Made by a program: the position numbers and the translations under genes
NCBI GenBank assembly: GCA_019246665.1
Contig: JAFAQA010000524.1
Span: 1 to 59,267 of the forward strand
Direction: 5' to 3'
Origin: Hyphomicrobiales bacterium
Lineage (GTDB): Bacteria; Pseudomonadota; Alphaproteobacteria; Rhizobiales; Beijerinckiaceae
DNA length: 59,267 bases
Shown here: positions 21,628 through 56,705 of the stretch, piece by piece
Layout of the letters: every line of letters starts with the position of its first letter
Position numbering within the stretch: position 1 is the first letter of the stretch
The notes under the pieces: generated by a model
The model's input: the letters and a program-made list of their open reading frames with translations, nothing else
Told to the model about the DNA's origin: nothing
The model's database searches: none

Positions 21628-21638
21628 CGGGGTCGGCG

Positions 21639-22412: not shown

Positions 22413-22427
22413 AGACCGCTTGCGGAG

Positions 22428-25927: not shown

Positions 25928-26185
25928 TCGTCGATCCGGTGCGGCCATTGCCGATCGAACCCCTCTGCTGACGAAGCAGCATTCTGCGCAATGCCCAGCT
26001 GATCCAAAAGACCGAGGCGTGTGCTCTTAAAATCGTGATACCCGCTTTTCACCCACCAGAAGCGCTATGAAGGCGACATGCCGCTTCTCTGCGTCATGCG
26101 CTTATCGGATGTCGGCAAAGCAACGCCGGTTTCTCTGCAAGTAAAATGGGAATGGTGGCATGGCGGCGCCGTTTCGCTTTGCCGC

Positions 26186-27625: not shown

Positions 27626-27923
27626 GGCGGCCCCTGCTGCAAAACGGCATAAGCGCCCATCCGGGAGCGACGACCCGATCGGCATTTGCGATCAGCGTGC
27701 GGTCGAGCGACTTTCCCGTGCTGCCGGCATGGACATAACAAAACCGCGCGGCTTTTGAGTCCATTAAAAAGAGGAAACGCGGTCGCCGCAACGGCGCGTT
27801 CAAAGACCCCGCTTGCCGGAAGCCGCTTTGGGAAGCTTGATCTTGAAACGCGTCATGTGCGCTGTTAGCTTCGCTTGATCATTCGTCACTGGCTCGTCGG
27901 GCGTTCGTCCAGGAGGATCGGCC

Positions 27924-28610: not shown

Positions 28611-28646
28611 CCCGGCGGATGGTCGCCGGCTTTTCGGGAGCATGAG

Positions 28647-30152: not shown

Positions 30153-30270
30153 GGGCCGTGTGGCCGCGAGCCCAGGCGGGGGTGGCGAAGATCGCGCCAC
30201 GCGATCGACGTCCTCACCGGCCGGAACCGCTCGTCATCCGGTCAATCCGAGTCGGGCAGAGGGTGGGCTG

Positions 30271-32474: not shown

Positions 32475-32599
32475 GGAGCGCCGACGTGCTCGCAATCCCC
32501 ATCGTGCCTTTCGACGCAGTGCTATCGCGTAGCGAGTGGCGTGCGGCGCGATCGGACCGCGTGCCCGGCCCACAGTTGGCGGAAAGAGGGTAAGGAAGA

Positions 32600-33472: not shown

Positions 33473-33481
33473 GAGCAGCGT

Positions 33482-41515: not shown

Positions 41516-41517
41516 TC

Positions 41518-43104
41518 TCAACGTCTCCTGGTGCCAAAAACGGATGAAAATCGTCGCACGCCGTGCGTCGACCCGGCGGGTGGCGTTGCCGGAGGTGTCG
41601 ATTGGATCGGCGGCGGAGAGGTGGAACCGGCAGGCCGCTCATAGGTGACGCGCTGCGGGGCACTAGTCCCCGTTCGGACGGGCGCGGCAGGGGTGGACAT
41701 ACGCGTGCGATCGGCGACCCCGGCGCGCTCCGCACCGCCGTCTTTCTTCGACGACATCTTGCGGAATTCGTCGCGGAGCGGCCAATTGGCCTTTTCCGCC
41801 GCGACCTGCGCGCATTCTATGAGCGCGCAATTCTTGGCCTCGCGCCGATGGGCTTTCATATCCCCGTCGCGGTAGGCGTTGAGGAGGCGGAACTCCAATG
41901 GATCCATGCCGATCGCGACGGCGTCCTTGTCCATTTGGCATTCAAGCGCGAAGTCGAGCGCGGTAACGCCAAAGCCGCGCATTGCCGTGGCCGGTGTCCG
42001 GTTGGTGAAGACGCAGAAGACATCCGCATGCACATTGGGGATGGTGTAGGGCCCGGGAATATGGGCCACGCATTTCACGACCGCGTAGCTCGAAAGGCGC
42101 GTGTAGGCACCCGCGTCGAAATAGGCCCGTACCTGTCGCGCGACGATCCGCCCATCGCGCATGACACCATCCTTGACGTAGATGCGCTCGGCGCCCCGCG
42201 GCGAGCCGAACTGCATCTCTTCGTGCCGGCTCAGCCGATAACGCACGGGCGCGCCGGTGAGGCGGGCGGCCAAGATGGCAAGCGGCTCGGTGAGCGTATC
42301 CACCTTGCCGCCAAACCCGCCGCCCACGGTGCCGCCAATGAAATGCAGCTGGTTCGACGGCATTGCGTTGATCTTGGCGGAGGTGTCGAGCGAGAAGAAC
42401 AGTGCCTGCGTGGACGTGTAGACGGTGAAGCGGCCATTGGTGTCCGGCACCGCGATCGAGCCGTTGGTCTCGGTTGGTGCGTGCTCGATCGGCGACATCT
42501 GGTAGCGTTCTTCAGAAACGAAGTCCGCCTGCGCGAACGCCTGCTCGACCGCCCCGAAGCGCAGTTTCTGGTGGTCGTATTTGCCGTGGTATTCGAAAGT
42601 GTTCTTCGGATATACCGGGTTGACGGACACTGCGCCCGGCTTCAGCGCCTCCTCGACATCGAACACCGCCGGCAGTGGATCGTAGGAGATGCGCACAAGC
42701 TCCAACGCCTCGCGCGCCGCGCGTTCGCTGGTCGCGACGACGCCGAGAATGGGTTCGCCCTTGTAGCGCACGACGTCCGTCGCAAGCGACGGCTCGTCAT
42801 CCTTGCCGAATTGAATGAGGCTCAGCAGCGTGTTTAGGTTGACCGGCACGTCGGCGGCGCGAATGATGCGCTTGACGCCCGGCGCGCGCGAGGCTGCGGC
42901 GTCGTCGATCGAGCGAATCCGCGCATGCGCGTGCGGGCTCCGCAGGATTTTCAGGTGGAGCAGATTGGCGAAGCGATGATCGTCGTAGTAAGCCGAAGTT
43001 CCGGTGACATGTCCGAGCATGTCCTGGCGCTGTGTAGGCTGTCCGACTTCTTTCAGATTATCGGCGCGTTCGTCAGCAAATATATCCTTGCGCATCTCGA
43101 GCAT
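41518..43104 (-). CDS. Molybdenum hydroxylase Mo-binding subunit, N-terminal half (NdhL-like), with Pro-rich C-terminal tail
   Basis: VTG...Y.DD, RSPHAHA.I, GGGFGGK, GPY.IPN and AMRGFG, followed by a ~80-aa low-complexity tail. Confidence 0.9.
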   Translation of the reverse strand: MLEMRKDIFADERADNLKEVGQPTQRQDMLGHVTGTSAYYDDHRFANLLHLKILRSPHAHARIRSIDDAAASRAPGVKRIIRAADVPVNLNTLLSLIQFGKDDEPSLATDVVRYKGEPILGVVATSERAAREALELVRISYDPLPAVFDVEEALKPGAVSVNPVYPKNTFEYHGKYDHQKLRFGAVEQAFAQADFVSEERYQMSPIEHAPTETNGSIAVPDTNGRFTVYTSTQALFFSLDTSAKINAMPSNQLHFIGGTVGGGFGGKVDTLTEPLAILAARLTGAPVRYRLSRHEEMQFGSPRGAERIYVKDGVMRDGRIVARQVRAYFDAGAYTRLSSYAVVKCVAHIPGPYTIPNVHADVFCVFTNRTPATAMRGFGVTALDFALECQMDKDAVAIGMDPLEFRLLNAYRDGDMKAHRREAKNCALIECAQVAAEKANWPLRDEFRKMSSKKDGGAERAGVADRTRMSTPAAPVRTGTSAPQRVTYERPAGSTSPPPIQSTPPATPPAGSTHGVRRFSSVFGTRRR

Positions 43105-43115
43105 GACAATTCCCT

Positions 43116-43592
43116 TCAACTACGCCGAGGGGCAGCGCGGGCCGCATCGAGGACCGCGGCGATGATCGGCTCATAGCCGGTGCAGCGGCAAATGTTTCCG
43201 CAAATCGCATCGACGACGTTCTCACGTGTCGGGTTTGGCTCCCGATCAAGGAGGGCTTTCGCCGCCATCAGCATGCCCGGCGTGCAATAGCCGCACTGGG
43301 CCGCGAAGCGTTCCATGAAGGCGGTCTGCAGAGGGTGCAATTTTGCACCTTGGCGAAGCCCGGCAACTGTCTCGATGGACTTGCCTTCGCAACTTTCGGC
43401 GAGGGTCACGCAGGAAAGTCGCGGCATGCCGTCGACCAGAACCGTGCAGGTACCGCAGGTGCCCTGCCAACAACCGCCTTTGACCGAAAGGTCACCGATT
43501 CCCTCCCGCAGCACATCGAGCAGGTTGGAGCCGCTATCGGCGAAGGTGGCGACCTCTTCGTCATTCAGGCGGAACTGGATCGAAGTCTTCAT
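43116..43592 (-). CDS. Molybdenum hydroxylase 2x[2Fe-2S] subunit
   Basis: GCWQGTCGTCTV, QCGYCTPG and GNICRCTGY. Start reassigned to MKTSIQF. Confidence 0.93.
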   Translation of the reverse strand: MKTSIQFRLNDEEVATFADSGSNLLDVLREGIGDLSVKGGCWQGTCGTCTVLVDGMPRLSCVTLAESCEGKSIETVAGLRQGAKLHPLQTAFMERFAAQCGYCTPGMLMAAKALLDREPNPTRENVVDAICGNICRCTGYEPIIAAVLDAARAAPRRS

Positions 43593-43599: not shown

Positions 43600-44418
43600 T
43601 CACGAGCGCCCCGCGCCGAGGAGCAGCCGGCGCAAATGGATGGGAAGAATCTCGCGCCGCCACCAGGCGCTGGCGATGGCGTCGTCAAGTGGGGATGTGC
43701 CGTCGGCCGCGACGGCGAGAGCGGGTGCGATGGCGTTGTCTTCGAGCGGACGCCCTTCGAGAGCGCGCTCAGCCGCTTTGGCGCGCAGGGGCATCCGGCC
43801 CATGGCCCCGTACGCAATGCGCGGGCCCGCAATTCGACCGTTCGCGAGGGGCAATTGCGCGGCGATCGCAAGAACCGACAAGCCCTTGGGATGCACACGG
43901 GTGACCTTCGTAAACCGGAACACCTCATTCGCGGGCCGTTTGAAAGCAATGCTCGATACGAGCGAAGCTCCGCGTTCGCGTCGCCCAAGGAACTCTTCGA
44001 GCGACAACTCGCGCTGACCGTAGCCACCGGCGAGCGTCACTGTCGCGTCGAGCGCAAGCAGGGCCGAGGCGAAATCGCCATAGGGGCTCGGTGCGAACAA
44101 GTTGCCCCCGATAGTAGCCGCTTCGCGTACTGCCGGCCCGCCGACAGCTCGTGCCACCGGGTGCAGAAACGCGAGTTCGCGCTCGCCAAGAATAGCGGCC
44201 ATCGTCACGCCGGCACCAAGCTCGACGCGACCCGAAGTCACCGCGATGCCGACGAAGCTCGGATCCGTCGAGCGGACGAGCGTTTCAATCGAAGGCTCAG
44301 CTTCGTTGACAGCGCGCATGACGAGCGTGCCACCCGCGAGAAAGCGCGCGCCGCGTTCGGTCGAGAGGGCGCTGGCAGCCTCGGCCAAACGGGCGAAGGT
44401 CTTCACAGCGATGGTCAC
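43600..44418 (-). CDS. Molybdenum hydroxylase FAD-binding subunit (CoxM/NdhF-like)
   Basis: LAGGT, VGGPAVR.AATIGGN and ALLALDA motifs. Confidence 0.9.
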   Translation of the reverse strand: MTIAVKTFARLAEAASALSTERGARFLAGGTLVMRAVNEAEPSIETLVRSTDPSFVGIAVTSGRVELGAGVTMAAILGERELAFLHPVARAVGGPAVREAATIGGNLFAPSPYGDFASALLALDATVTLAGGYGQRELSLEEFLGRRERGASLVSSIAFKRPANEVFRFTKVTRVHPKGLSVLAIAAQLPLANGRIAGPRIAYGAMGRMPLRAKAAERALEGRPLEDNAIAPALAVAADGTSPLDDAIASAWWRREILPIHLRRLLLGAGRS

Positions 44419-44873
44419 GGGCGGCCCTCCCCGGCCATCCCTGCGAAGTGGGCGCGGACGGCCGCGAATCCCGCGTCGTAGATGTCAATCCCGATCATCC
44501 GCGTCATTTCCTCTTCCTCACCCATGCGCGTTGAAAATGAGCAGCGCCATTCCCAGAAGGTCCGGTCTCCGTCGGTGACCGGAGCGAGGCGCACATGCGC
44601 CACGTAATTGAACAAGGGAACCGGCGTGTCTAACAGGCAGTAGGAGAAGCTCTGCTCGAGATCGGAGAGGCTCAGCAGCCGTTCGCGCAGCTCCGATCCG
44701 TCGCGCAGGAAGAAGCGTCGAATGCAGCCAAGCTTGTCTGCGCTTTGCCCGCGCTCGATCGCGCTCTTGGCGACGGCGGGATGCCATCGGTCATGGCCAT
44801 TGAAATCTCGCAAGAAGAGCCAGACGCGATCGGTCGGGGCCTCGATAATCGTCGAGCGCACGAGACGGATCAT
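44415..44873 (-). CDS. SRPBCC (START/polyketide cyclase-like) protein
   Basis: S.II.AP...VW..LRDFN....WHP, GC.R.F.L.DG...RE.LL.LSD; paralog of the adjacent gene. Confidence 0.88.
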   Translation of the reverse strand: MIRLVRSTIIEAPTDRVWLFLRDFNGHDRWHPAVAKSAIERGQSADKLGCIRRFFLRDGSELRERLLSLSDLEQSFSYCLLDTPVPLFNYVAHVRLAPVTDGDRTFWEWRCSFSTRMGEEEEMTRMIGIDIYDAGFAAVRAHFAGMAGEGRP

Positions 44874-44877: not shown

Positions 44878-45315
44878 TCAGCCTCCAAACTGGCGCTTGA
44901 GAGCATCGAAGCCCCCCTGGAACACACCCCCGCCGATCGACGACATCAAATCGGCCTCGCGCTCCGGCGGGCAGTCGAACTCCGCCGTCCACTCGACAAA
45001 GGTGCGGTCGCCGTCGGTGATCGGGGTGAGGCGAAGCGTGGCCACGTAGTTCTCGACGCCCATTGGCGATTCCAGGATCGAATACGTACAGAACAAATCG
45101 AAATCGGAGAGTCCGAGGAGCCTCTCCCGGATGCGATCGCCATTGCGCAGGCGAAAATCGCGCACGCATCCGACCTTGTCCGCAGGTTCGCCATTCTCGA
45201 TGCGGCTCTCCGCGATCCCAGGATGCCACAAGGGAAGCGCATTGAAATCGCGAACTCGCGCCCAAACGCGGTCGGAACGGCTGTTGATGACGCTCGAGAC
45301 GTAGACGCGGGGCAT
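44878..45315 (-). CDS. SRPBCC (START/polyketide cyclase-like) protein
   Basis: VW..VRDFN.LP.WHP, GCVRDF.L..G..IRE.LL.LSD and TFVEWTAEF motifs. Confidence 0.88.
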   Translation of the reverse strand: MPRVYVSSVINSRSDRVWARVRDFNALPLWHPGIAESRIENGEPADKVGCVRDFRLRNGDRIRERLLGLSDFDLFCTYSILESPMGVENYVATLRLTPITDGDRTFVEWTAEFDCPPEREADLMSSIGGGVFQGGFDALKRQFGG

Positions 45316-45348: not shown

Positions 45349-48201
45349 TTATCCGCGCGACGACCCCCCGCCTGCGGGTGGCTTCTTCGGCTTGGTCTCC
45401 TTGCCGATGGCTTGCATGTCGCGCGCTTCCCGAATGAGGCCCGGCAATCGCGAGAGGCTTCCGCCCTCGATGCCGATTTCGGCGAGGATCTGATCGATCA
45501 TCGGGGCCTGGACGCGATATCGTAGCGCCGAATCGATCACCTCGTCGGTGGCGCTGCGGCCTCGCGAGCCGCCCGATCCACTCCCACCATTGAGGCCGTC
45601 TACGTGCAGGATGCGGATGCCCTCGATTTTCTCCATCGGCTTGACGCTTTCGCGCACGATGCCCTCGATACGTTCGAGCAGCCTGCGGCGGAAAAGCGAC
45701 GCACGCGATGCATCCGAGAGCACGTTTTCCGCCTCATTGAGAAGCCGCTGGGCTTCGGCTTCGGTTTCCGCGCGCACCTTTTCAGCCGCCGCCGCGATCC
45801 GCACTTCGTCGGCCTCTTTTTCGGCGATGAGCACTTCGACCGTGCGACGACGACGCGCCGCCTCGCTTTCGCGGACCGTCTTGACCCGCTCCTCGGCCTC
45901 GACCGCCTCAGCGCGTGCCGCCTCGGCTTCGGTCTGTGCCGTCGATTGTTCGAGCGATTTTCGGTGAATTTGCACCGCGCTTTCCATCCTCGCCGTTTCG
46001 ACCGCAGTCTCGCGACCGATTTCGAGCTGGCGCAGTTCCCGCTCACGAATGATCCGCGCCTCATCGAGGCCCCGTTCCGAGGCGATGCGCGCCCGCTCGA
46101 CCTCCTCGCGCGATGCGATCTCCGCTTCCTGGAAAGCTTGCATGCGGCCGATCTCGGACTGTTCCACCGCGCGCCGGCGCTCCAAGCGCGCGAGATCGAG
46201 AGTTTGCTCACGCACGACGTCGGCGCGCTCGATGCGCTGGGTCGCCAGGATGTTGGCTTCCTTCACCCGCCGATCGGCGTCCGCTCGTTCGGTCAGCTTA
46301 GCTGCGACCTCGATCGAGCGATCCTGATCGGCGATCTCCAAGATCTTGCGGCGATCGATGTCGAGCGTCTCGCGGGTCCTTGACGATGCGATCCGCTCGC
46401 GCTCGAGGGTAAGCTCGCTGGTGATGCGTGCAGCTTCGACGACCTCGCGTCGCTTGATCTCGGCATCTTCGATTGCCCCCTCGCGCGCGATTTCGCGACT
46501 GCGCGTCTCCTGCTCGGAGCTGATACGCTCGAAGGCGATCTTTTTCTCCTGGCTTATGCGGGAAGCCTCGACCGCTTCGCGCGCCGCGATTTCCGCCTCA
46601 TCGAGCGAGCGTGTCCGGGCAATTTCGAGGGCTCGGACATGTTCCTCTTGCTGGATGCGTGCCGCCGCGGTGACCTCGCGTGCCGCGATGTCGGTTTCTT
46701 CGAGTGTCTTGGTGCGTTCGATCTCGAGGGTCCTTATGGCGACCTCCGACGCGATACGCTCGGCGGAAAGAGCTTTCTCTCTCGCGATGCGTGCCGCTTC
46801 CGTGGCCCTCGCGGCGGTGATCTCTTCCTCGTCGACCACGCGGTTGCGGGTGATCTCGCGCCGGCGGATCTCTTCCTCGAGTGCGATGCGCTCGTCGGTG
46901 ACGACCCGTTCCTGGGCGATGCGGGCGCGCTCGGTGATCTCACGGGCCGCGATTTCGGCCTGCTCGAGATTGCGCGTGCGTTCAATCTCCAGGCGGCGGT
47001 TCTCCTCATCCTTGGCGATGCGTGCCGCGGTGACCGTGAGCTCTTGAGCGATGCGCGCCTTTTCAGTCTCCTCCCGCGCTACGATTTCGGCCTGCTCGAC
47101 GTTTCGCGTGCGTTCGATTTCGCGCCGCTGGTCCTCCTCATCGCGCGCGATGCGAGCCTCGGTGACCACCCCCTCCTGGACAATGCGGGCGCGCTCGACG
47201 CGTTCGCGCGCGGCAATCTCGGCTTCGTCGATCAGGCGTCCACGCTCGATCTCGCGCTCGCGGATGTCGCGCTCGGAAGCGATGCGCGCTTCGGAAAGCG
47301 CGCGCTCATGGGCGATGCGCGTCTTCTCCACTTCCTCGCGGGCGGAGATCTGTGCCTGCTCGGCTTCGGTGTCGCGCAGCGAGCGCTCTCGGGCGAGCTC
47401 GGCGCGCTGCACCGCGCGCCTGACCTCGATGTCGCGTTCCTGGTTAAGGCGGGCGGTCTCACTCTCGCGATCGATTTCGAGCGCCTGCTTCTCCGCTTCG
47501 AGGTTGCGGCTGCGGATCAGGATCATCGAATCCTGCTCGATGTCGTTGCGCAGCTTGCGGCGCGCTTCGATGTCCTCGATGAGTTTTGTCAAACCTTCGG
47601 CATCGAACCGATTGGATGGATTGAAGAATTCGAGATCCGTCTGATCAAGATCGGTGATCGCCACCGATTCGAGTTCGAGGCCATTCTGCTGCAGGCCCTC
47701 CAGCGCCGCGTCCTTGACGCGAGACACATACTCGCCGCGCCGCTCGTGCATCTCGACCATGGTCATTTCGGAGGCGACTGATCGCAAGGCGGAAACAAAC
47801 TTGCCGGACAGCAAGGCATCGAGCTCTACGACGTTGGTGGTGCGCCGGCCAAGTGTCGCCGCCGCGATGGTCACCGCCTCGCGCGTGGGCGGGACCCGAA
47901 CGTAGAACTCCGAATCGATGTCAACGCGCATGCGGTCCTTGGTGATCAGTGCGTCTCCCTGGTTACGAACGACCCGCATGCGCAAGACGTTCATGTTGAC
48001 CGGAGTGACTTCGTGAATGAACGGAAGAACGAAGGCTCCGCTGTTGATCACCACCCTTTCGCCAAAGAGCCCCGTGCGCACGAAGGAAAGCTCCTTCGAT
48101 GAACGGTGATAAAGCCAATTGACGAGGTAGACGAGAATGGCGATGACGACGACGGCGACAATGAGCCAGATGATTAGGTTACCGAGAATGGCAACAGACA
48201 T
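45349..48201 (-). CDS. Very long flotillin/SPFH-family protein (~950 aa, YqiK-like)
   Basis: N-terminal TM helix, SPFH domain (FVRTG, LITKDRMRVD...FYVRV, NGLELESV, FFNPSN.FDAEGLT), a long E/R/A/I coiled coil, and a flotillin C-terminus (ESVKPMEKIEGIRI, SALRYRVQAP). RBS GGAGG before the ATG at 48201. Confidence 0.9.
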   Translation of the reverse strand: MSVAILGNLIIWLIVAVVVIAILVYLVNWLYHRSSKELSFVRTGLFGERVVINSGAFVLPFIHEVTPVNMNVLRMRVVRNQGDALITKDRMRVDIDSEFYVRVPPTREAVTIAAATLGRRTTNVVELDALLSGKFVSALRSVASEMTMVEMHERRGEYVSRVKDAALEGLQQNGLELESVAITDLDQTDLEFFNPSNRFDAEGLTKLIEDIEARRKLRNDIEQDSMILIRSRNLEAEKQALEIDRESETARLNQERDIEVRRAVQRAELARERSLRDTEAEQAQISAREEVEKTRIAHERALSEARIASERDIREREIERGRLIDEAEIAARERVERARIVQEGVVTEARIARDEEDQRREIERTRNVEQAEIVAREETEKARIAQELTVTAARIAKDEENRRLEIERTRNLEQAEIAAREITERARIAQERVVTDERIALEEEIRRREITRNRVVDEEEITAARATEAARIAREKALSAERIASEVAIRTLEIERTKTLEETDIAAREVTAAARIQQEEHVRALEIARTRSLDEAEIAAREAVEASRISQEKKIAFERISSEQETRSREIAREGAIEDAEIKRREVVEAARITSELTLERERIASSRTRETLDIDRRKILEIADQDRSIEVAAKLTERADADRRVKEANILATQRIERADVVREQTLDLARLERRRAVEQSEIGRMQAFQEAEIASREEVERARIASERGLDEARIIRERELRQLEIGRETAVETARMESAVQIHRKSLEQSTAQTEAEAARAEAVEAEERVKTVRESEAARRRRTVEVLIAEKEADEVRIAAAAEKVRAETEAEAQRLLNEAENVLSDASRASLFRRRLLERIEGIVRESVKPMEKIEGIRILHVDGLNGGSGSGGSRGRSATDEVIDSALRYRVQAPMIDQILAEIGIEGGSLSRLPGLIREARDMQAIGKETKPKKPPAGGGSSRG
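46363..47253 (-). repeat. Intragenic tandem repeat: six 44-aa and one 33-aa units with 11-residue periodicity
   Basis: Units start EIERGR, EIERTR, EIERTR, EITRNR, EIERTK (33 aa), EIARTR and EIAREG; Ile recurs every 11 residues (EI..EI..RI..RI). Confidence 0.85.
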
Positions 48202-48202: not shown

Positions 48203-49093
48203 TTACGTCCTCCCTCTCGCTGACCGCTGGTAGAGTGCGCGGCTAACCTTTGTTTTACTATCAGATTTCTTGATTGCCTTGAATTTTGCAACTTGGTCGG
48301 CAAGAGCGCGCTCGACCGGCAGGCGCTCCATCGACGAGGCTCCGAAGAACCCGTCGCAACGACGAGACTGAGCGAGCACATAGGCGGCGTCGGCTGGCTC
48401 GGCGACCGGTCCGCCATGCACGAGCACGAAGATGTCGTGCTTCACCGCGAGCGCCGCCTCGGCCATGGTGTCGGTGAGGGCTGGACAATCCTCCAGTCGC
48501 GTCGCGGTCGCTGCGCCAATCGAGCCGCCGACCGTGAGCCCGAAATGGCACACGAGGATGTCCGCGCCGGCCTTGGCCATGGCCGCTGCCTCCCAGGGTT
48601 CGAAGACATAGGCAGCTGTCAGAAGGTCGCGCTCACGCGCCTTGGCAATCATGTCGACCTCGCGGTCATAGCCCATGCCGGTTTCCTCGAGCCCCGCGCG
48701 AAAGCGACCGTCGATGAGCCCGACCGTGGGAAAGTTCTGCACGCCGCTGAAACCCAGCCGCTTGAGTTCGAGCAGCAGATCATCCATCTGGCGGAACGGA
48801 TCGGTCCCGCATACTCCGGCGAGCACCGGCGTGCGAGCGACGACGGGGAGCACCTCGCGAGCCATATCCAGGACGACGGCGTTTGCGTCGCCATACGGCA
48901 TCATGCCGGCGAGGGACCCCCGGCCAGCCATGCGGTAGCGCCCTGAATTGTAGATGACGATGAGATCGGCGCCACCCTTCTCCTCGCTCTTGGCGGAGAT
49001 GCCGGTGCCCGCACCGGCACCGATGATGGGTTCACCCCGCTCTTTCATGGCGCGGAAACGCGCGAGAATGTCCGAGCGCGTGACACGGGGCAC
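48203..49093 (-). CDS. TIM-barrel signal transduction / PEP-hydrolase-like protein (Tm-1 C-terminal domain homolog)
   Basis: [49 protein letters not shown] and [10 protein letters not shown] motifs. Confidence 0.88.
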
Positions 49094-49096
49094 GGG

Positions 49097-51313
49097 CTAC
49101 CTCCTTGCGTGACGCCGGGTGCGGCGCCCACCGACCAACCGGCGGAATTCGGAGACGATTTCCGTCGAGAATTGCGGATCATTGATATGCGCGCGCAACC
49201 GGATGAGCCGGCGCGCGGCGGATTGCCGAACGGTGGCTTCGAGAGTTCGGAAAAGCTCTTCGTCGGCATTCGGATCTGCAAACGGCCCGCGCGGACCGTC
49301 CAGCGCCGAGAGCCCACCCTCGGGCAGGAAGAAACGGACCGGCCCCTCCATCAGATTGAGGCGCTCGCCGATCCATCGGCCGATCCGCACGTTCTCGTCC
49401 GCGGTCGTTCGCATGAGCGTCACCGTCGGGTTATGCACGTGGAACCTGCGGCCACGGTAACGCTCAGGGACGCTGTCGATCGGCCCGAAGTTCACCATGT
49501 CGAGCGCGCCGCACGAGCCGATGTAGGGAACTCTCGTGCGCGCGATGGCTCCGAACCGATCCTCGGTGGCGGGCAACACGCCACCGAAGAGAAGATCGCA
49601 GACTTCCGTCGTGGTGATATCAATCACGCCCATAAGCGCGCCGGCATCGACGAGCTTTTCCATCGATTGTCCGCCGACGCCGGTGGCGTGGAAAACGAGG
49701 CACTCGAAATCGTCATCGAGCGCGTGTGCGATGGCGTCGACGCAAGGGGTCGTGACCCCGAACATGGTGAGGCCGATCCCCGGTTTGCCGCCGCCGCGCG
49801 CCTGCAGTCGATCGCGTTCCGTCGTGCTTGCGGCGCGCGCCTTCACCATACCGACAATGGCCGCGGCCCCATTGGCGAGAACCTGGCGTGTGATCGAATT
49901 CAGTCCCGCAACGTCGGCCACGGAGTAAAGCATCATGATATCCGAGGGCCCGACATACGGAGCGACGTTGCCGGAAGCGACGGACGAGACGAGCACCTTG
50001 GGCACGCCGATCGGCAAGGCCCGCATGGCCGGCGCAACCAACGAACTTGCGCCAGATCCTCCCGCGGAAATCAGGCCGCCGATCGGCGCCTGCCGCCTGA
50101 TCCATGTTTCGAAGGCTTCGGCCATGGCGGTGATCGCGGCGCCGCGGTCCCCCGAGAAAACCGAATTTGGCCCGCCACGGTAATATGTCGCGACGTGATG
50201 GGGCGGCACATCGGCCGGCGATGGCCCGCCCGAGGTGGACAGATCAACCAGCGTCACGCGCACGCCTGCGGCGGCGATCTGATCGCGAATAAAACGAAGC
50301 TCCTCGCCTTTGGTGTCCAGCGTCCCAGCGACGATCACCGGGGCCACACCGCCGCGGTGGACTGGCCGCAGGTCGACCGCCGGGGCCGTGGGCTCGGCCG
50401 TCGCCTCGGGCACCACCGTGCGCGTGCGCGCGGCCGTCTCGATCTGTAGAATGGAAGCTGGCAGTGACCAGCGCGTCGGCGTCGCCGGGTTGGAAATAAA
50501 CACGCGGACGGGGCCGCGTGGCTTCCGCGGGCGGGCAGCGTTGCCGGGAGAAGGCTTTTCGGCAGGCTCCTCGGTCGTCCCTTCCTCGCCGTGCTGGCCC
50601 ACGCCAAGCAATCTTTGTTGAAGTTCACGATCGGCTTCGAGGCGCGCCGCGTCCATGACGCGATTGATCCGACCATTGATCATGATCGCGACTTTTTCCG
50701 CTATCGCGGTCGCGACCCCGATGTTTTGCTCAACCACCAGAATGCCGATGTCGCTTTGCTCGCCCAGTGTGACCAGGATCTGTTCGACCTGGTCCACGAT
50801 GACGGGTGCCAAGCCCTCGGTCGGCTCGTCCATCACCAAGAGGAGCGGGTTGAGAAGCAGGGCGCGTGCAATGGCCAGCATTTGTTGCTCGCCACCGGAG
50901 AGCTGATTTCCCCGATTGTTGCGTCGTTCCGCCAGCCTCGGGAACGTGTCGTAGATGCGCGAAATCGTCCACTGTGATCGGCTTGCCCCGCTCGCGAGCT
51001 GCAGGTGCTCGGCGACGGTGAGTGAAGGCCACAGCCGGCGGCCCTGCGGCACATAGCCGACCCCCAGTCGTGCGATCTCGGCAGGGCTACGACCGATGAG
51101 ATCTTCGCCCATGAAACGGATGGAGCCGCTCGCGGCAGGGATCAGCCCAAGGATTGCCTTGCACAGCGTCGTCTTGCCCATGCCGTTTCGTCCCACCAGG
51201 GAAAGCACGCCGCGCTCGAGTTTCAGATCGACGCCCTGAAGCGCATGGCTGCGTCCATAGGAGACGTTCAACCCTTTGATCTCGAGCAAATGGGACGAGC
51301 GAGGCTCAGCCAT
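49097..51313 (-). CDS. LivF-type ABC ATPase fused to a UPF0261/Tm-1-like ATP-binding domain
   Basis: N-part has GRNGMGKT, VPQGR, LSGGEQQM and DEPTEGL. After an ~85-aa linker, the C-part has GTLDTKGEE, GGSG, LPIGVPK..VS, TMFGVTT, FHATG.GG, GALDMVNFG and HINDP.F. Confidence 0.9.
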   Translation of the reverse strand: MAEPRSSHLLEIKGLNVSYGRSHALQGVDLKLERGVLSLVGRNGMGKTTLCKAILGLIPAASGSIRFMGEDLIGRSPAEIARLGVGYVPQGRRLWPSLTVAEHLQLASGASRSQWTISRIYDTFPRLAERRNNRGNQLSGGEQQMLAIARALLLNPLLLVMDEPTEGLAPVIVDQVEQILVTLGEQSDIGILVVEQNIGVATAIAEKVAIMINGRINRVMDAARLEADRELQQRLLGVGQHGEEGTTEEPAEKPSPGNAARPRKPRGPVRVFISNPATPTRWSLPASILQIETAARTRTVVPEATAEPTAPAVDLRPVHRGGVAPVIVAGTLDTKGEELRFIRDQIAAAGVRVTLVDLSTSGGPSPADVPPHHVATYYRGGPNSVFSGDRGAAITAMAEAFETWIRRQAPIGGLISAGGSGASSLVAPAMRALPIGVPKVLVSSVASGNVAPYVGPSDIMMLYSVADVAGLNSITRQVLANGAAAIVGMVKARAASTTERDRLQARGGGKPGIGLTMFGVTTPCVDAIAHALDDDFECLVFHATGVGGQSMEKLVDAGALMGVIDITTTEVCDLLFGGVLPATEDRFGAIARTRVPYIGSCGALDMVNFGPIDSVPERYRGRRFHVHNPTVTLMRTTADENVRIGRWIGERLNLMEGPVRFFLPEGGLSALDGPRGPFADPNADEELFRTLEATVRQSAARRLIRLRAHINDPQFSTEIVSEFRRLVGGRRTRRHARR

Positions 51314-52088
51314 GCCCTCCTCCCAAATACAATTGCTGCACCTGGGGGTCTGCTTCGATTTCGCGCGGCGTTCCTTCCTTGAAGATCCGTCCGTTGTGCA
51401 TCATCGTCACGCTCTCAACCACCCGCAGCGCAACGTCCATGTCATGCTCAATGATGATGTAGCCGATATGGGCGGGAAGCGCGGTGAGGATCGCGATGAG
51501 ATCGCCTCGCTCGTTCGGCGAAAGCCCCGCTGCCGGTTCGTCGAACAGGATGAAGCGCGGTGCGCCTGCGAGTGCCAGAGCGATCTCGAGCTGACGTTGC
51601 TGGCCGTGCGCCAGCTCGCCGACCGGACGATCGGTGACGGATTCGAGATGCACCAGCGCAATGAGGCTGGTGACCGATTGCATGATGGCGTCGCGGGCGT
51701 GCCTGCGGGCAAACGAGAAACGGCCGCGCGAAACGCCTAGGCAGGCGAGATAGACGTTGTCTCGGACCGAGAGGCCCTGGAACAACAGCGAGATTTGGTA
51801 AGTGCGGCGCAGGCCTCGGCGAATGCGTTCGTGGGGCGGCAGATTAGTCACATCCTCGCCGTAGAAGCGCACGCTACCCGAGGTTGGGGGAAAATCGCCG
51901 GTCACGCAATTGAGCAAGGTGGTTTTGCCCGCGCCGTTGGACCCGAGCACGGCGCGTCGCTCGCCGGGTCGAACGCTGAGCGTGATGTCGGACAAGGCTG
52001 CGAGACCGCCGAAACGCCGGCTTACGCCGCGCAATTCGATCGCATTGCCGGTGCCGGCGACAGCAATCCGTTCGGCGATCGTGCTCAA
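51306..52088 (-). CDS. LivG-type ABC ATPase
   Basis: GSNGAGKT, L.HGQQRQLEI, DEPAAGLS and IEHDM. TTG start overlaps the upstream stop. Confidence 0.92.
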   Translation of the reverse strand: MSTIAERIAVAGTGNAIELRGVSRRFGGLAALSDITLSVRPGERRAVLGSNGAGKTTLLNCVTGDFPPTSGSVRFYGEDVTNLPPHERIRRGLRRTYQISLLFQGLSVRDNVYLACLGVSRGRFSFARRHARDAIMQSVTSLIALVHLESVTDRPVGELAHGQQRQLEIALALAGAPRFILFDEPAAGLSPNERGDLIAILTALPAHIGYIIIEHDMDVALRVVESVTMMHNGRIFKEGTPREIEADPQVQQLYLGGGHG

Positions 52089-53143
52089 CGCGGGCTCTTC
52101 CCGGTCTGGGAGCGAGCGCGCGCCGACCACCGCCGCCAAAGGCCTATCATCCCATCGGGCGAGAAGAGCACGATGACAAGAAATCCCAGTCCGATGATCG
52201 TCTGGAAGCGGCGTCCATCGAGTCCGACGGCGACAAGCGAGTCGAGGGCGAAGGTCCGCAATATTACGTAGATCAACGCACCGATGAAGGCACCGATTGG
52301 GTGTCCGAGGCCCCCGACCACCGCAATCACGAGAAGGTCGATCGTCGCCTCGATGCCGGCGGTGCCTGGAGAGATCTGGTTGTTGAGCCACACCAAAAGG
52401 ATGCCGCCAATCGCCGCGATGAGGGCCGCGAAAGCGTAGGCGGCGATGCGGTGAGCGGTGACATTGAAGCCGATCGCCTCCATGCGACGGGGATTATCGC
52501 GGGTGCCTTGGAGAGCGAGGCCGAACGGCGCGCGGGAGATGTAGAGAACAGTAACGTAGCTGAGACCGGCAAAAAATAGGATCAGATAATAGAGGGCGAC
52601 GGGAGATTTCCAGTTGATACCAAGGAAAATCGGTGCCGGTATCGTCGTAAAGCCGTTGAAGCCGTTGAAGATCGACCAGTTCTGGAGTGTCAGGTAGAAG
52701 AAAGCGCTCGCAAGTGCGAGGGTGATCATGATCGTATAGATGCCTTCGGTGCGCGCGGAGAGGGCGCCGGCTAGCGTTCCGAAAGCGACGGCAATGATGA
52801 TCGCAACAGGGGCAGCCACCCACCACGGCCAGAACAGGCTAATCGAGGGAAGTGAACTCGCGCCGAAAACGGTGATCATGTATCCGGCAAGGCCCGCGAC
52901 CGTCATCTGCACCAGGCTCACCATGCCGCCGTAGCCGGCGAGAAACATCAACGACAGCGCGATCATGCCGAGGATCAAGGTCCAGCCGACGATCTGGTCG
53001 AGCACGAAATTGCTCGCGACCGCCGGCAGCAGCACCAGGACAAGCCCGAGCAGCAGAATGGCAAAATGATCGGCGATCCAGCGCGGCGGCGCCGCGCTGT
53101 CGACGCCGCCGATCCTAGTCTCCCTGGTGTGCGAGATCGCCAC
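52085..53143 (-). CDS. LivM-type branched-chain ABC permease
   Basis: GYGGMVSL, Y.IMITLA, PFG.AL...RDN..R...G and VVGG.G...GA motifs. Confidence 0.92.
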   Translation of the reverse strand: MAISHTRETRIGGVDSAAPPRWIADHFAILLLGLVLVLLPAVASNFVLDQIVGWTLILGMIALSLMFLAGYGGMVSLVQMTVAGLAGYMITVFGASSLPSISLFWPWWVAAPVAIIIAVAFGTLAGALSARTEGIYTIMITLALASAFFYLTLQNWSIFNGFNGFTTIPAPIFLGINWKSPVALYYLILFFAGLSYVTVLYISRAPFGLALQGTRDNPRRMEAIGFNVTAHRIAAYAFAALIAAIGGILLVWLNNQISPGTAGIEATIDLLVIAVVGGLGHPIGAFIGALIYVILRTFALDSLVAVGLDGRRFQTIIGLGFLVIVLFSPDGMIGLWRRWSARARSQTGKSPR

Positions 53144-54211
53144 TCAACGCCGTCCCAGAAGCCCTTGCGGGCGCAAGGCGAGAACAACCACCATGATCAC
53201 GAATGTCGCGACCGTTGCATAATTTTGGAAGTAAACCAGGCCAAACTGCTCCGAGAGGCCGATGATGAGAGCGCCGAGCGCGGCACCCGGAATCGATCCC
53301 ATTCCCCCAACGATCACCACGACGAGCGATGCCAACAGGAAATGCGAGTCTTCGCCGAGGGAGATCGATTGGAATGTCCCGCCCACGATGCCTGCCATTC
53401 CGGCCAATCCGGCGCCGAACGCGAAGACGAGGATGAACAAGAGTTGCACCCGGTATCCGAGCACCGAGAGCATGTCGCGATCATCGACCCCGGCGCGGAT
53501 CATCATGCCGATCCGCGTACGGTGCAGGGCAAGCCACATCCCGACGCCGATCAGGACGGCGGCGATAAAAATCACGAGCCTGACGCGGGGGTATTGAAGA
53601 AAAACCGCGTCACCGCTCGATTTGATGGCGACAATGATGGGGGTTGGCACGGGACCCATCAAATAATCCGGCGTATCGATCTGGATGGCGTTGCCGCCCC
53701 AGACCCACACCATCAGATCGGAGAAGACGATCGAGAGCCCAAGCGTGACAAGCGTCTGGCGGAGATCCTGCCCCTGCATTCGACGGAAGATCAGGACCTG
53801 CATGGCGGCGCCGACCAAGGCACAACAGGCAAACGCGAAAACATAACTGAGGAGCCACGAACCGGTCCACACACCCGCCTCGTAACCCATATAACCACCA
53901 AACAAGTAGAGCGAGCCGTGCGCGAGGTTGACGTTGCGCATCAGGCCAAAGATCAACGTGAATCCGGCGGCAACGAGAAAGTAGAGCCCGCCGAGCGTAA
54001 TGCCATTGAAAAGTGCGTTGATGAATAGACGCTTCCTGCCGAAAACGTTCTCGAACTCTTCCGGCCATGGCGCGAACACCAGCCAGAGCACGAAAATAAC
54101 AGCAATGGCGATCGTCAGCGCCGCGACGGGACGACGGCTTATCCAGCGCGCGAACCTGTCACCGCGCTGCGCGGTTTGTGGTGCAACTTCGTGGCCAAGA
54201 GCCGTGGTCAA
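53144..54211 (-). CDS. LivH-type branched-chain ABC permease
   Basis: NGITLGGLY..A.GFTLIFG...VNLAHG, VIVGGMGS and RPQGL.G motifs. Confidence 0.92.
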   Translation of the reverse strand: MTTALGHEVAPQTAQRGDRFARWISRRPVAALTIAIAVIFVLWLVFAPWPEEFENVFGRKRLFINALFNGITLGGLYFLVAAGFTLIFGLMRNVNLAHGSLYLFGGYMGYEAGVWTGSWLLSYVFAFACCALVGAAMQVLIFRRMQGQDLRQTLVTLGLSIVFSDLMVWVWGGNAIQIDTPDYLMGPVPTPIIVAIKSSGDAVFLQYPRVRLVIFIAAVLIGVGMWLALHRTRIGMMIRAGVDDRDMLSVLGYRVQLLFILVFAFGAGLAGMAGIVGGTFQSISLGEDSHFLLASLVVVIVGGMGSIPGAALGALIIGLSEQFGLVYFQNYATVATFVIMVVVLALRPQGLLGRR

Positions 54212-54294: not shown

Positions 54295-55122
54295 CTATTC
54301 GACCACGACCCGGGCTATAGTCCGATAAAGATTGGGTGCCACGCCGACATGGGCTGAGAAGAAATGGGTGAAATGGCTCTGAGATGAGAAGCCGAGCTCA
54401 AAACCGATATCGCTTACTGAGATTTGGGGGTCCATCAGGCGCTCAAGGGCCCGCTCGATCCGCATGGTATTGGCGTAGAGTGCGGGTGTCACCCCGGTGT
54501 TTTCGCGAAACAACTTGAAGAAATGCGGCCGGGACAGGCCGACATGTCGCGCGATGGCATCGAGCTCGAGGCCTTGTGAACAGCCGTCCTGCAGCAAGTG
54601 CAACGACTTACGAACGCGAAAGTCGATGGAGGTTCTGCAGGCCGAAAGGGTTGCCGGTCGACGATCCTTGCTCCAGGAAGCATCAAAGCTCGCATCGAAG
54701 AGCTGGTTCAAGTAGCGCTCGACGATCCGACAGCTCGCGTGAGTTACAAGCACGTGGGCAAGGCTCACGGCAATCGAGCGGATCGTTGTTCCTACCTCGA
54801 TCGTGTTGGCACCAAAACGTAGGCTGCCGCGACCGTGTTGATCTCGGTCAAGCCATCGCTCGCAGAGATAGGCCACCAGAAAGACCGAACCTTGATTTCC
54901 AGGGCTTGGGCAAAAAGAATGCGGCTGCCAAGGATTGATGGCTACCCCTCTCGTCTCGTTGACGACGTGGGGAACATCACAAATGGTGACCACTGCCGGA
55001 GGGCCACTCAACAGGTAAGTCAGATGCCCTTCACGATGCGCATGCGTGCGCATGGGCCGATCGAGCTTATAAACGGTCACTCGCCCGAATGCGCCATGGC
55101 AGACTGACAGAGCATTGCTCAT
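54295..55122 (-). CDS. AraC-family transcriptional regulator with cupin N-domain
   Basis: HAHRE cupin motif; double HTH GLSRPHFFKLF...GVTP and LGFSSQSHFT.FF. Confidence 0.92.
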   Translation of the reverse strand: MSNALSVCHGAFGRVTVYKLDRPMRTHAHREGHLTYLLSGPPAVVTICDVPHVVNETRGVAINPWQPHSFCPSPGNQGSVFLVAYLCERWLDRDQHGRGSLRFGANTIEVGTTIRSIAVSLAHVLVTHASCRIVERYLNQLFDASFDASWSKDRRPATLSACRTSIDFRVRKSLHLLQDGCSQGLELDAIARHVGLSRPHFFKLFRENTGVTPALYANTMRIERALERLMDPQISVSDIGFELGFSSQSHFTHFFSAHVGVAPNLYRTIARVVVE

Positions 55123-55442
55123 CGATCGCCTCCCACACAGGTTTTCTTGTTTTGTGGATTAAGCGCCGACCTGTTCCGGGTGACAAGTGGGTGTGCGGTT
55201 GAACTTGAGAATTGGGCAAGATCGGACCCCAAGACAGGCAGGCGCAGCCCGTGTACTTGGGTTGCGACTACACAAATCCGGCGCGCAAATTCTAAGATTC
55301 CACAGTAATGGACTTGTGGCGGACGCCCGCCAACTGTTACGATTTCGTTGCTGGTCGATAGGACGGTGAGTTATTCCCCCCGCAACAACTAAGCTTCAGC
55401 AGCCGGTGCCGTTTCACGGTGCACCAACAGGAGGAAACCTCA

Positions 55443-56705
55443 ATGCGCAAGGGCATGGTACTCGCGTATGCGGCGGCTTGCGTCGCGCTCGCCAATAGCG
55501 GATCTGCGCAAGCTGCCGATAAACTCAAGGTTGGCGTCACCGCGACGCTCGAAGGCACGTACACCGTGCTAGGTGAAGACGGCATGCGCGGCTACGAGCT
55601 CGCAGTGAAGGCTCATAACGGGAAGGCCGGGGGCAGGGAAATCGAGACCATCGTCGGGTCAACGGATGCCAGTCCGGACTCAGCGCTGCGGGCCGCCAAG
55701 AAGCTGGTCGAACAAGATAAGGTCGACGTCCTTATCTCCCCGCTCTCGGGCGCAGAAGGCATCGCGATCAGGGATTATTCCAAGACGCAGCCGCAGATCA
55801 CTGTCATCAACGCATCCTCTGGTGCGCTGGAAACCACTTATGTGGACCCCTCCCCCACATTCTTCCGCTTCAATATGGACGGTGCGCAGTGGCATGCCGG
55901 GCTTGGCGACTACATCTACAACACCAAACACTATAAAAAAATTGCTACGGTCGCAGAAGACTATGCGTTCACGTATACCCAAGTTTTTGGACTGGCACTG
56001 GAGTATTGCCAACTAGGCGGGCAGATCACCAAGAGGTTTTGGGTGCCGCTCGGTACCAAGGATTTCGCTTCGGTCATCGCGGCGCTCCCTGATGACGTGG
56101 ATGCCATTTACCTCGGACTTGGCGGCGCCGACGCCGTGAACTTCCTCAACCAGTATCAACAAGCCGGCGGCAACGCCAAGCTCATTGGCGGGTCGATCAT
56201 GGTGGACCAGACGGTGCTGTCGTCGAAGGGGAAAGCGAAAGAAGCGCTGGTCGGTGTCGTCGCGGCAAGCGGCTCTGCCGATACCGATCCTGATCCGAAA
56301 TGGCAGGCGTTCGTGAAAGCCTATCAGGAAGCCTGGCCGGCCGATAAGCGCTTTGCCGCTCCATCGCTCCTTGCCATCAGCTACTACAATTCGGCGGATG
56401 CGGTGTTTCGTGCGCTCGACCAGGTCAACGGGGATCTCAGCGACGGCAATAAGAAGTTCCGCGAAGCCCTGAAGAACATGGTTCTGGACGCCCCGAATGG
56501 GAAAATAACTCTGGACGAAAATCGCCAGGCCATTGGCACGAATTTCGTGACAGAAGTCGTGAAGGACGAGCGTGGCGATCTCGTCAGCAAGGTCGTCAAG
56601 GTCGTCCCGAACGTGCAAGAACGGCTCGGGTTCTCAAAGGAAGTCTTCGACAAGATCGGCCTGCCCGGACGGGATGTGCCCGAGTGCAAGAAGAGCTATC
56701 CATAA
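55443..56705 (+). CDS. LivJ/K-type ABC substrate-binding protein
   Basis: Sec signal, KVGV...EG.Y, KLVEQDKVD and DYAF; RBS GGAGG; divergent from the AraC/operon. Confidence 0.9.
   Translation: MRKGMVLAYAAACVALANSGSAQAADKLKVGVTATLEGTYTVLGEDGMRGYELAVKAHNGKAGGREIETIVGSTDASPDSALRAAKKLVEQDKVDVLISPLSGAEGIAIRDYSKTQPQITVINASSGALETTYVDPSPTFFRFNMDGAQWHAGLGDYIYNTKHYKKIATVAEDYAFTYTQVFGLALEYCQLGGQITKRFWVPLGTKDFASVIAALPDDVDAIYLGLGGADAVNFLNQYQQAGGNAKLIGGSIMVDQTVLSSKGKAKEALVGVVAASGSADTDPDPKWQAFVKAYQEAWPADKRFAAPSLLAISYYNSADAVFRALDQVNGDLSDGNKKFREALKNMVLDAPNGKITLDENRQAIGTNFVTEVVKDERGDLVSKVVKVVPNVQERLGFSKEVFDKIGLPGRDVPECKKSYP

What the first reader, a model, noticed from the sequence alone, without database searches (positions are those of the whole stretch)
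48203..51313. Plant Tm-1 domain pair attached to an ABC transporter ATPase
Seen: one 738-aa frame joins a complete LivF ATPase, via an ~85-aa linker, to a UPF0261 domain (~49097-50342). A TIM-barrel gene starts 3 bp after its stop. Known: the tomato ToMV-resistance protein Tm-1 consists of these two domains in this order, its N-domain binds ATP, and the cellular role of the bacterial homologs is unresolved. Inference: the fusion tethers the Tm-1-like module to the transporter's cytoplasmic face, as a regulator or a first-step enzyme on the imported solute, which would give the family a metabolic context. The linker also holds a non-low-complexity island (VRVFISNPATPTRW) that could be a docking motif.
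Basis: partly seen in the sequence, partly recalled or inferred. Interest (0 to 1): 0.8.

Follow-up and report, generated by a model that had tools for sequence, protein, structure and literature searches.

The report
Importer ATPase carrying a tethered kinase
One ATP-burning subunit of a bacterial nutrient-import pump is fused, through a flexible linker with a short conserved motif, to a Tm-1/MarK-type domain that likely phosphorylates the imported molecule or its first product at the membrane, and the fusion nearly always sits beside a membrane-scaffold (flotillin) gene, which would give an untested enzyme pair shared with plants a concrete place to be studied.

Summary
Confirmed. The 738-aa frame (49097-51313, minus) joins an intact LivF ATPase, an 87-aa linker and a full UPF0261 domain; the TIM-barrel gene starts 3 bp later. 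Independent contigs bridge the linker without indels. The fusion is common (19 of 47 UPF0261-bearing genomes in a 401-genome sample) and its LivF forms one clade. The linker is predicted disordered but holds a P-[TN]-R-W motif ([TN]R[WF] in 34 of 34). A flotillin gene follows 32 of 33 other fusion loci (one contig ends) and 0 of 33 unfused loci. Best reading (0.5): a transporter-tethered kinase that traps a hydroxy-(hetero)aromatic or enol solute and feeds the TIM barrel. The scan found this fusion before on at least six other genomes; I found no paper on it.

The parts
49097..51313 (-). LivF-UPF0261 fusion gene, 738 aa (P0001)
50603..51286 (-). LivF-type ABC ATPase domain, residues 10-237, all motifs intact
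   Evidence: 1JI0, TM 0.88 to target
50339..50599 (-). Linker, residues 239-325, predicted disordered (pLDDT mostly under 50)
50417..50515 (-). Conserved linker island, residues 267-299 (64% and 51% identity in the window-type clade against 10-24% in the flanks)
50468..50479 (-). Core short motif P279-T280-R281-W282
49832..50338 (-). UPF0261 N-subdomain (326-494) with D333-T334-K335, equal to MarK D14-T15-K16 and Tm-1 K20 (ATP site)
49136..49786 (-). UPF0261 C-subdomain (510-726) with G519, H542, H627 (MarK G195, H219, H304) and Tm-1-type V520, M606, N608, L671
48203..49093 (-). PF09370 TIM-barrel partner; nearest structure 2P10 (Z 38), then 4ML9 and phosphonopyruvate hydrolase 2DUA (Z 19-20, 13-19% identity)
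45349..48201 (-). Flotillin (SPFH + Flot), 950 aa, starts 1 bp after the TIM stop; 44-residue period in the coiled coil
44878..45315 (-). SRPBCC (Polyketide_cyc2) protein 1
44415..44873 (-). SRPBCC protein 2
43600..44418 (-). Mo-hydroxylase FAD subunit
43116..43592 (-). Mo-hydroxylase 2Fe-2S subunit
41518..43104 (-). Mo-hydroxylase molybdopterin subunit, first half; best PDB match nicotinate dehydrogenase large subunit 3HRD_A
40490..41521 (-). Mo-hydroxylase molybdopterin subunit, second half; best PDB match nicotinate dehydrogenase medium subunit 3HRD_B
39597..40484 (-). MoxR/CoxD-type AAA ATPase
38488..39600 (-). CoxE-type VWA protein
37601..38491 (-). Amidohydro_2 (weak L-fuconolactonase-like match, below cut-off)
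36725..37573 (-). Metallo-beta-lactamase-fold hydrolase (weak AHL lactonase / 4-pyridoxolactonase matches, below cut-off)
35110..36708 (-). SMP-30/gluconolactonase + isochorismatase fusion
51306..52088 (-). LivG-type ABC ATPase (start approximate); overlaps the fusion start by 8 bp
52085..53143 (-). LivM-type permease
53144..54211 (-). LivH-type permease
54295..55122 (-). AraC-family regulator, found in 12 of 33 other fusion loci
55419..56705 (+). Periplasmic binding protein (Peripla_BP_6), divergent here; homologue in 33 of 33 other fusion loci

Best explanation
The gene fuses the LivF ATPase of a branched-chain-type ABC importer to a UPF0261 domain that is likely an active ATP-dependent small-molecule kinase, predicted to phosphorylate a ring hydroxyl or enol of the imported solute (or of its first product) at the inner face of the membrane, where the TIM-barrel partner would take the phosphorylated compound and the co-encoded flotillin would likely organise the assembly. 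Shown: the fusion, intact motifs in both halves, one origin from an operon where livF and upf0261 were already neighbours, and tight genetic linkage to TIM barrel, flotillin and SRPBCC genes. Inferred: (1) kinase activity, by homology to MarK; (2) a substrate other than acetovanillone, probably a hydroxy-N-heteroaromatic or lactone/enol compound, from the pocket changes (I285 to N, H348 to L) and from the nicotinate-dehydrogenase-like Mo enzyme and lactonase/amidase genes; (3) since MarK is a homodimer and this fusion is the only UPF0261 in the genome, the domain would pair two importers; (4) the P-[TN]-R-W motif docks on a partner, flotillin being the candidate by co-occurrence only.
For: MarK is a UPF0261 kinase with D14/T15/K16 and G195/H219/H304 conserved in over 90% of homologues (PMC12624787); the window has D333/T334/K335/G519/H542/H627, kept in 34 of 34 genomic fusions and 106 of 106 close database fusions and in all 39 metagenome fusions whose frame covers all the sites. 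Model matches Tm-1 3WRX/3WRY and MarK 9MPY folds. LivF motifs invariant in 19 of 19. 17 genes from livH to the isochorismatase are packed with gaps of -8 to 33 bp. Among 33 other fusion loci: LivG 33, binding protein 33, flotillin 32, SRPBCC 32, TIM 29; among 33 unfused loci flotillin 0, TIM 27; the two TIM-less fusion genomes that I checked carry a TIM gene elsewhere. Metagenome fusions with 2 kb or more downstream: flotillin 32 of 32, TIM 32 of 32; three named plasmid fusions also carry motif and flotillin. Fused LivFs form one clade (98) that is sister to LivFs of unfused UPF0261 operons; flotillin subgroups mirror the UPF0261 subgroups. Motif [TN]R[WF] in 22 of 22 linkers against 0.41 expected by shuffling, 12 of 12 in a later sample, 43 of 44 metagenome fusions with the last one PMRW; absent from 6 of 6 unfused LivF tails. 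TIM barrel keeps an invariant G-A-S-S at strand 8 (phosphate-binding site by recalled knowledge of this fold). Both Mo subunits match nicotinate dehydrogenase best. The unfused operon of Thermomicrobium roseum carries PEP-utilising (dikinase-type) genes.
Against: No activity was measured for any TIM-paired UPF0261 protein; MarK is only about a third identical in this domain (33%) and lies in an operon without a TIM barrel described. Two diverged fusions (P0297, P0301; 2 of the 8 ABC+UPF0261 proteins among 24 representatives scanned) keep LivF motifs but have lost the kinase residues, and P0263 keeps the kinase but has a degenerate LivF: each half can persist without the other's catalysis. All co-occurrence counts stem from one fusion event, so they are not independent. 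The downstream enzymes differ by lineage (Mo-hydroxylase tail in 12-13 of 33 loci, quinone reductase/hydrolase set in most others), so the Mo enzyme cannot define the core substrate. In G213 the flotillin is frameshifted while fusion and motif persist. The motif is not docked in the single-chain model (alignment of 49 rows). The binding protein's best solved relative is distant (4ZPJ, E 5e-36) and names no ligand.
Confidence: 0.5

Rival explanations
1. The fused domain mainly regulates or scaffolds the importer: it binds ATP and the solute or a product, dimerises two transporters and recruits the TIM barrel, in the way C-terminal regulatory domains control other ABC ATPases (MetN, MalK; recalled). 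Catalysis is secondary or lost.
For: P0297 and P0301 keep a full-length UPF0261 domain and intact LivF but lose D-T-K, G519, H542, H627 and the GGSG loop. Tm-1 acts by ATP-bridged protein binding (PMC12624787). TIM-barrel paralogues fused to sigma-54 activators sit next to unfused operons (L060), so this fold is used for sensing.
Against: Degenerate forms are rare: 0 of 34 genomic fusions, 0 of 106 close database proteins, none among the 39 fully covered metagenome fusions, and a scan with P0301 found no degenerate locus. Catalytic residues are as conserved in fused as in unfused copies.
Confidence: 0.25
2. The domain is an ordinary pathway kinase acting on a later intermediate, and the fusion is a frozen accident of two neighbouring genes that only fixes co-expression; flotillin and motif ride along with the operon.
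For: Unfused livF-upf0261-TIM operons exist in Alphaproteobacteria, Actinomycetota and Thermomicrobium and their LivFs are the sister group; one unfused copy (L185) is nested in the fusion clade, and a 519-aa family keeps a linker remnant without LivF.
Against: A 77-119-aa linker with an invariant Arg-Trp core was gained and kept across 13 families of one class and into Betaproteobacteria and Arenicellales; flotillin was gained with it and is missing from the L185 locus.
Confidence: 0.2
3. The module is a defence protein that binds a viral helicase, as tomato Tm-1 does.
For: Closest solved structure is Tm-1 (E 6e-93 against 2e-58 for MarK).
Against: [quoted passage not shown] The defence-system library was not searched.
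Confidence: 0.03

Closest known systems
MarK (Saro_1862) of Novosphingobium aromaticivorans, PDB 9MPY; UPF0261 'multiple aromatic kinase' (PMC12624787)
   Same: Both UPF0261 subdomains; D-T-K ATP site; G/H/H hydroxyl-binding and stacking residues; catabolic operon setting.
   Different: Stand-alone protein followed by acvCDEF; T196, F283, I285, H348 are V, M, N, L here; not fused to a transporter; the paper has no occurrence of 'ABC', 'transport' or 'flotillin'.
Tomato Tm-1 and plant Tm-1-like proteins (UPF0261 + TIM barrel; PDB 3WRV-3WRY; PMC5028733)
   Same: Same domain order; closest solved structure; identical pocket residues V/M/N/L and the ATP-contact lysine; plant TIM halves 60-64% identical to the window's.
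   Different: Here the TIM barrel is a separate gene and the UPF0261 half is fused to an ABC ATPase; Tm-1's cellular job is unknown.
LivFGHM-K / UrtABCDE family of ABC importers
   Same: Full set of two permeases, two ATPases and a type-I binding protein.
   Different: All scores lie below the Liv and Urt equivalog cut-offs, so the cargo is neither shown to be an amino acid nor urea; LivF carries a 500-residue extension.
ABC ATPases with fused C-terminal regulatory domains (MetN, MalK, OpuA) and transport-coupled phosphorylation (PTS, PnuC-NadR, GlpF-GlpK); all recalled, not from a call
   Same: An extra domain on the ATPase, or a kinase that traps the solute on entry.
   Different: In those the extra domain is small and non-catalytic, or the kinase is a separate protein or part of a non-ABC system; here a whole kinase-family domain is tethered to an ABC ATPase.
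Flotillin-associated rhodopsin clusters (PMC10308929)
   Same: A flotillin paralogue without the usual YqiJ neighbour, co-encoded with a membrane client; these are the nearest non-fusion flotillins and LIV-type permease genes precede them in the three loci checked.
   Different: Client there is a rhodopsin; no UPF0261 in those loci.

Membership tests
UPF0261 / Tm-1-like domain (PF06792 + PF23189) | Both Pfam profiles over their cut-offs, matching fold | tested here: met
   201.7 and 296.5 bits against cut-off 27; NF002673 577 over 520; Foldseek 3WRX/3WRY/9MPY
MarK-type aromatic kinase | D-T-K ATP-site residues and G/H/H hydroxyl-binding residues | tested here: met
   D333 T334 K335 G519 H542 H627
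MarK-type aromatic kinase | Acetovanillone pocket residues T196, F283, I285, H348 | tested here: not met
   V520, M606, N608, L671
MarK-type aromatic kinase | Co-location with acvCDEF/hpeCBAD carboxylase and phosphatase genes | tested here: not met
   None of the 19 window genes scanned around the fusion is a biotin carboxylase component; the rest of the genome was not searched for them
MarK-type aromatic kinase | ATP-dependent phosphorylation giving ADP | not testable with these tools
   Needs an assay
Tm-1-like protein (plant type) | UPF0261 and TIM barrel in one chain | tested here: not met
   Stop at 49097-49099, separate GTG start 3 bp on; apparent triple fusions in the database are frameshifted
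Tm-1-like protein (plant type) | Physical pairing of UPF0261 with the TIM barrel | not tested
LivF/UrtE-type ABC importer ATPase | Walker A, Q-loop, signature, Walker B/D-loop, switch; LivG, two permeases and binding protein adjacent | tested here: met
LivF or UrtE equivalog (known cargo) | Score over the curated cut-off | tested here: not met
   UrtE 222.9 under 285.8; LivF 154.6 under 441
Phosphonopyruvate hydrolase / PEP mutase-isocitrate lyase superfamily (TIM partner) | Structural kinship and catalytic residues | tested here: inconclusive
   Z 19, rmsd 3.4, 234 aligned, 13% identity to 2DUA, tied with other barrels; catalytic residues not compared
Four-subunit nicotinate-dehydrogenase-type Mo-hydroxylase (operon tail) | Molybdopterin subunit split into large and medium chains with FAD and 2Fe-2S subunits | tested here: met
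   Best PDB matches 3HRD_A (E 7.5e-60) and 3HRD_B (E 4.5e-49), next 4-hydroxybenzoyl-CoA reductase; substrate not shown

The most novel reading that the evidence does not exclude
An ABC importer that does PTS-like group translocation without the PTS: the LivF-tethered kinase phosphorylates the solute as it enters, UPF0261 dimers and TIM-barrel oligomers link several importers, and the P-[TN]-R-W motif anchors them inside a dedicated flotillin cage whose height is matched to its cargo (937-1125 aa where the Mo-hydroxylase tail is present, 559-736 aa otherwise), forming a membrane-bound metabolic compartment. Its substrate would also reveal the lost cellular job of plant Tm-1.
Probability: 0.15. 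Interest if true: 0.85.

Novelty: new variant of a known kind. Interest (0 to 1): 0.58.

Why it matters
The UPF0261/TIM-barrel pair is kept in plants, fungi, archaea and bacteria and has no known cellular reaction; only the TIM-less MarK has an activity. This fusion ties the pair to one importer whose binding protein can be screened for its ligand, in cultured strains (Variovorax paradoxus VAI-C, Shinella zoogloeoides Teo12, Yoonia sp. SS1-5, Reyranella soli NBRC 108950), so the substrate becomes directly testable. A kinase-family domain tethered to an ABC ATPase would be an unusual way to couple uptake and trapping, and a flotillin gained together with a short linear motif would be a rare genetically defined client for a bacterial flotillin. 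The architecture is already in databases (named by JGI, mis-named 'ABC transporter permease' by NCBI, a 2003-member Atlas cluster), so the fusion itself is not rare or hidden; what is missing is any study of it.

Tried and rejected
Artefact reading: rejected. Triple LivF-UPF0261-TIM fusions (P0126, P0127, P0246, P0252, P0256, P0257): all leave the UPF0261 frame near its C-end, and an intact 753-aa member (P0245) lies in the same cluster, so dropped as frameshift records. My first recall that AcvAB/HpeHI are the UPF0261/TIM pair was wrong: PMC12624787 treats them as a separate heterodimeric (di)kinase. Complex prediction of linker+UPF0261 with the TIM barrel: tool not available, nothing folded, so no verdict on any binding. 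Single-chain model leaves the motif undocked, no verdict. Careful tree and one-clade test did not finish; trees cited are quick or FastTree, with three long-branch unfused rows (L067-L069) left out and 25 of the other LivFs sampled. In one search only two candidates per genome were scored; one search repeated the count by family. G190 (fragmented, 7% contamination) has a LivF+linker match with one stop that I did not examine. TIM as the motif's partner could not be excluded. No RNA holder listed. Promoter and terminator scans were at chance level. Binding-protein, SRPBCC and TIM structure searches named no substrate. Scan for degenerate fusions in metagenomes found none. Paper searches that found no study of the fusion: (listings only, except the papers named in the full report); the 2014 Tm-1 structure paper is not held. 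Supplements of the MarK paper (homologue lists) were not read and could list such fusions. SMa1334 as a UPF0261 gene is recalled and unverified; its mutant had normal nodulation (PMC3462710, passages).
Full report
Observation. The minus-strand frame 49097-51313 gives 738 residues without a stop. Pfam finds ABC_tran at 25-165, UPF0261 at 326-494 and UPF0261_C at 510-726; the nearest ATPase models are UrtE and LivF, both under their cut-offs. The linker is residues 239-325. The PF09370 TIM-barrel gene starts 3 bp after the stop and a 950-aa flotillin gene 1 bp after the TIM stop. Contigs from two public runs bridge the whole linker with 0 and 1 differences and no gaps, and no indel is listed in 4 of 4 runs laid; 7 listed variants in the ORF that I checked are synonymous. 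The fusion is the only UPF0261 match in its genome.

How common. A search with residues 200-360 gave 3707 proteins among 5945 candidates; 114 of the best 120 carry both PF00005 and PF06792, JGI names the architecture and NCBI calls it 'ABC transporter permease'. The ESM Atlas holds a 2003-member cluster with both domains. In 401 evenly drawn genomes of the class, 47 have UPF0261 and 19 of them, the window included, have the uninterrupted fusion, the 18 others in 13 families. A second sample of 401 gave 12 more fusion loci, all checked; three more came from named contigs (Burkholderiales MAG, Reyranella soli, Arenicellales) and three from plasmids (Variovorax, Yoonia, Shinella). Fused LivFs form one clade (support 98) whose sister group is LivF of unfused livF-upf0261 operons in Alphaproteobacteria and Actinomycetota; one unfused UPF0261 (L185) nests inside the fusion clade of the UPF0261 tree. 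So the two genes were neighbours first, fused once, and were occasionally split again. These are FastTree and quick trees; the careful test did not finish.

What the domain is. PMC12624787 (parts 1-4 of 8 read; passages) shows that MarK, a UPF0261 homodimer, phosphorylates phenolic aromatics with ATP to give ADP; D14/T15/K16 line the presumed ATP site (K16 equals Tm-1 K20, which contacts ATP-gamma-S), and G195/H219/H304 hold the phenol. The window has D333, T334, K335, G519, H542 and H627 at these places, as do 34 of 34 genomic fusions and 106 of 106 close database fusions (one of 107 was not matched by the cutting pattern) and all 39 metagenome fusions whose frame covers all the sites (of 44). 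The other four pocket residues are V520, M606, N608 and L671, as in Tm-1 and unlike MarK, so the substrate is not acetovanillone and this is not a MarK orthologue. The model matches Tm-1 (TM 0.84 to 3WRX_B), MarK and the LivF-like 1JI0. LivF motifs are invariant in 19 of 19 aligned fusions. The TIM partner is 61% identical to the uncharacterised 2P10 and otherwise only distantly like phosphonopyruvate hydrolase and other barrels; PMC5028733 (abstract, parts 1-2 of 5 and passages) reports that 491 of 504 bacterial genomes with the barrel also have UPF0261 and does not mention transporters.

The linker. It is predicted disordered (pLDDT under 50 over 239-286 and 293-322) and varies from 77 to 119 residues, yet [TN]R[WF] stands in 22 of 22 linkers where shuffling expects 0.41, in 12 of 12 further ones, in 3 of 3 plasmid fusions and in 43 of 44 metagenome fusions, the last having PMRW. 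R281 is invariant in 49 aligned rows. In the window-type clade residues 267-284 are 64% identical against 10-24% for the flanks. The motif is absent from 6 of 6 unfused LivF tails and from the N-ends of unfused UPF0261 proteins.

The surroundings. Seventeen genes from livH to the isochorismatase fusion are packed with gaps of -8 to 33 bp. Among 33 other fusion loci LivG and the binding protein occur in 33, flotillin and SRPBCC in 32 (one contig ends in the TIM gene; one flotillin is frameshifted) and TIM in 29; among 33 unfused loci flotillin occurs in 0 and TIM in 27. Conversely the 16 best flotillin matches in the class sample (58-75%) all lie beside fusions, although the next tier starts at 57%, and flotillin subgroups mirror the UPF0261 subgroups. 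Of 20 other flotillins, 10 have YqiJ and 4 a rhodopsin directly upstream. Downstream enzymes come in two sets: a four-subunit Mo-hydroxylase with MoxR/VWA, amidohydrolase, lactonase-like and isochorismatase genes (window type, 12-13 of 33), whose Mo halves match nicotinate dehydrogenase best; or an SRPBCC-quinone reductase with FAA hydrolase, alpha/beta hydrolase and amidohydrolase. Flotillin length follows this split (937-1125 aa in 12 of 12, 559-736 aa in 18 of 18). Both sets point to opening of a small ring compound; neither names it.

Mechanism. Most likely (0.5) the tethered domain is an active kinase that phosphorylates a ring hydroxyl or enol on the solute or its first product right under the importer, trapping it and feeding the barrel. 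Because MarK is a dimer and each importer has one LivF (recalled stoichiometry), the domain would pair importers, which fits a flotillin microdomain; eukaryotic flotillins form closed membrane-bound cages (bioRxiv 10.1101/2024.05.09.593390, abstract). All of this beyond the sequence facts is inference. Results against: among 24 representatives scanned, 8 have ABC+UPF0261, of which P0297 and P0301 have lost the kinase residues with LivF intact and P0263 has the reverse, so the domain can be kept without catalysis (rival, 0.25); no such locus was found in a metagenome scan. A neutral fusion of neighbours (0.2) is weakened by the gained motif but not excluded.

Novelty and score. Ten paper searches in an open-access library found no study of this fusion; subscription papers and the MarK supplements were not seen. 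PMC10308929 and PMC3462710 were seen as passages. Each part belongs to a known family, so this is a new variant of a known kind: a real, widespread, unstudied architecture that makes the reaction of the Tm-1 domain pair testable. Interest 0.58.

Noticed in passing
window 45349-48201 and fusion loci L032-L049, L091, L092, L170-L181: Flotillin length tracks operon type: 937-1125 aa with the Mo-hydroxylase tail (12 of 12), 559-736 aa with the quinone-reductase set (18 of 18); the window's coiled coil has a 44-residue (4 x 11) period.
   Followed up: partly
L070:87-6916, L074:2954-6892, L085:2536-6763, L077:4243-6675: The nearest non-fusion flotillins follow a rhodopsin gene (FArhodopsin type, PMC10308929), and in the three loci checked LIV-type permease genes precede it: flotillins without YqiJ recur beside LIV-type importers.
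   Followed up: partly
P0297, P0301, P0263 (database proteins, no locus): Diverged fusions in which either the UPF0261 catalytic residues or the LivF motifs are lost while the other half is intact.
   Followed up: partly
P0264 cluster (27 members, mostly 519 aa): UPF0261 with a roughly 115-residue N-terminal linker remnant and no LivF; looks like a fission product.
   Followed up: partly
L192:14368-19899 and L067:10666-12051: PEP-synthase-like (dikinase-type) genes lie in or next to unfused UPF0261 operons.
   Followed up: no
L060:956-2842, L093:4387-6024: A diverged PF09370 barrel fused to a sigma-54 activator (L060) lies upstream of unfused operons; L093 has a similar long barrel gene.
   Followed up: no
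window 35110-36708: SMP-30/gluconolactonase fused to an isochorismatase domain; same pair in the Shinella and Yoonia operons.
   Followed up: partly
L046:8394-10652 (G213): Fusion-adjacent flotillin broken by frameshifts while fusion and motif persist.
   Followed up: partly
P0132, P0137, P0360, P0283: Database proteins joining UPF0261 and TIM barrel in frame (P0132, P0137), in reverse order (P0360), or UPF0261 with a cupin (P0283); origin and reality not checked.
   Followed up: no
window 18963-34288: A second catabolic region upstream: oxidase-like genes, enoyl-CoA hydratase and CoA-ligase-like frames, class II aldolase, two amidohydrolases, DUF1028 and a polyamine-type ABC importer (partly read by eye).
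   Followed up: no
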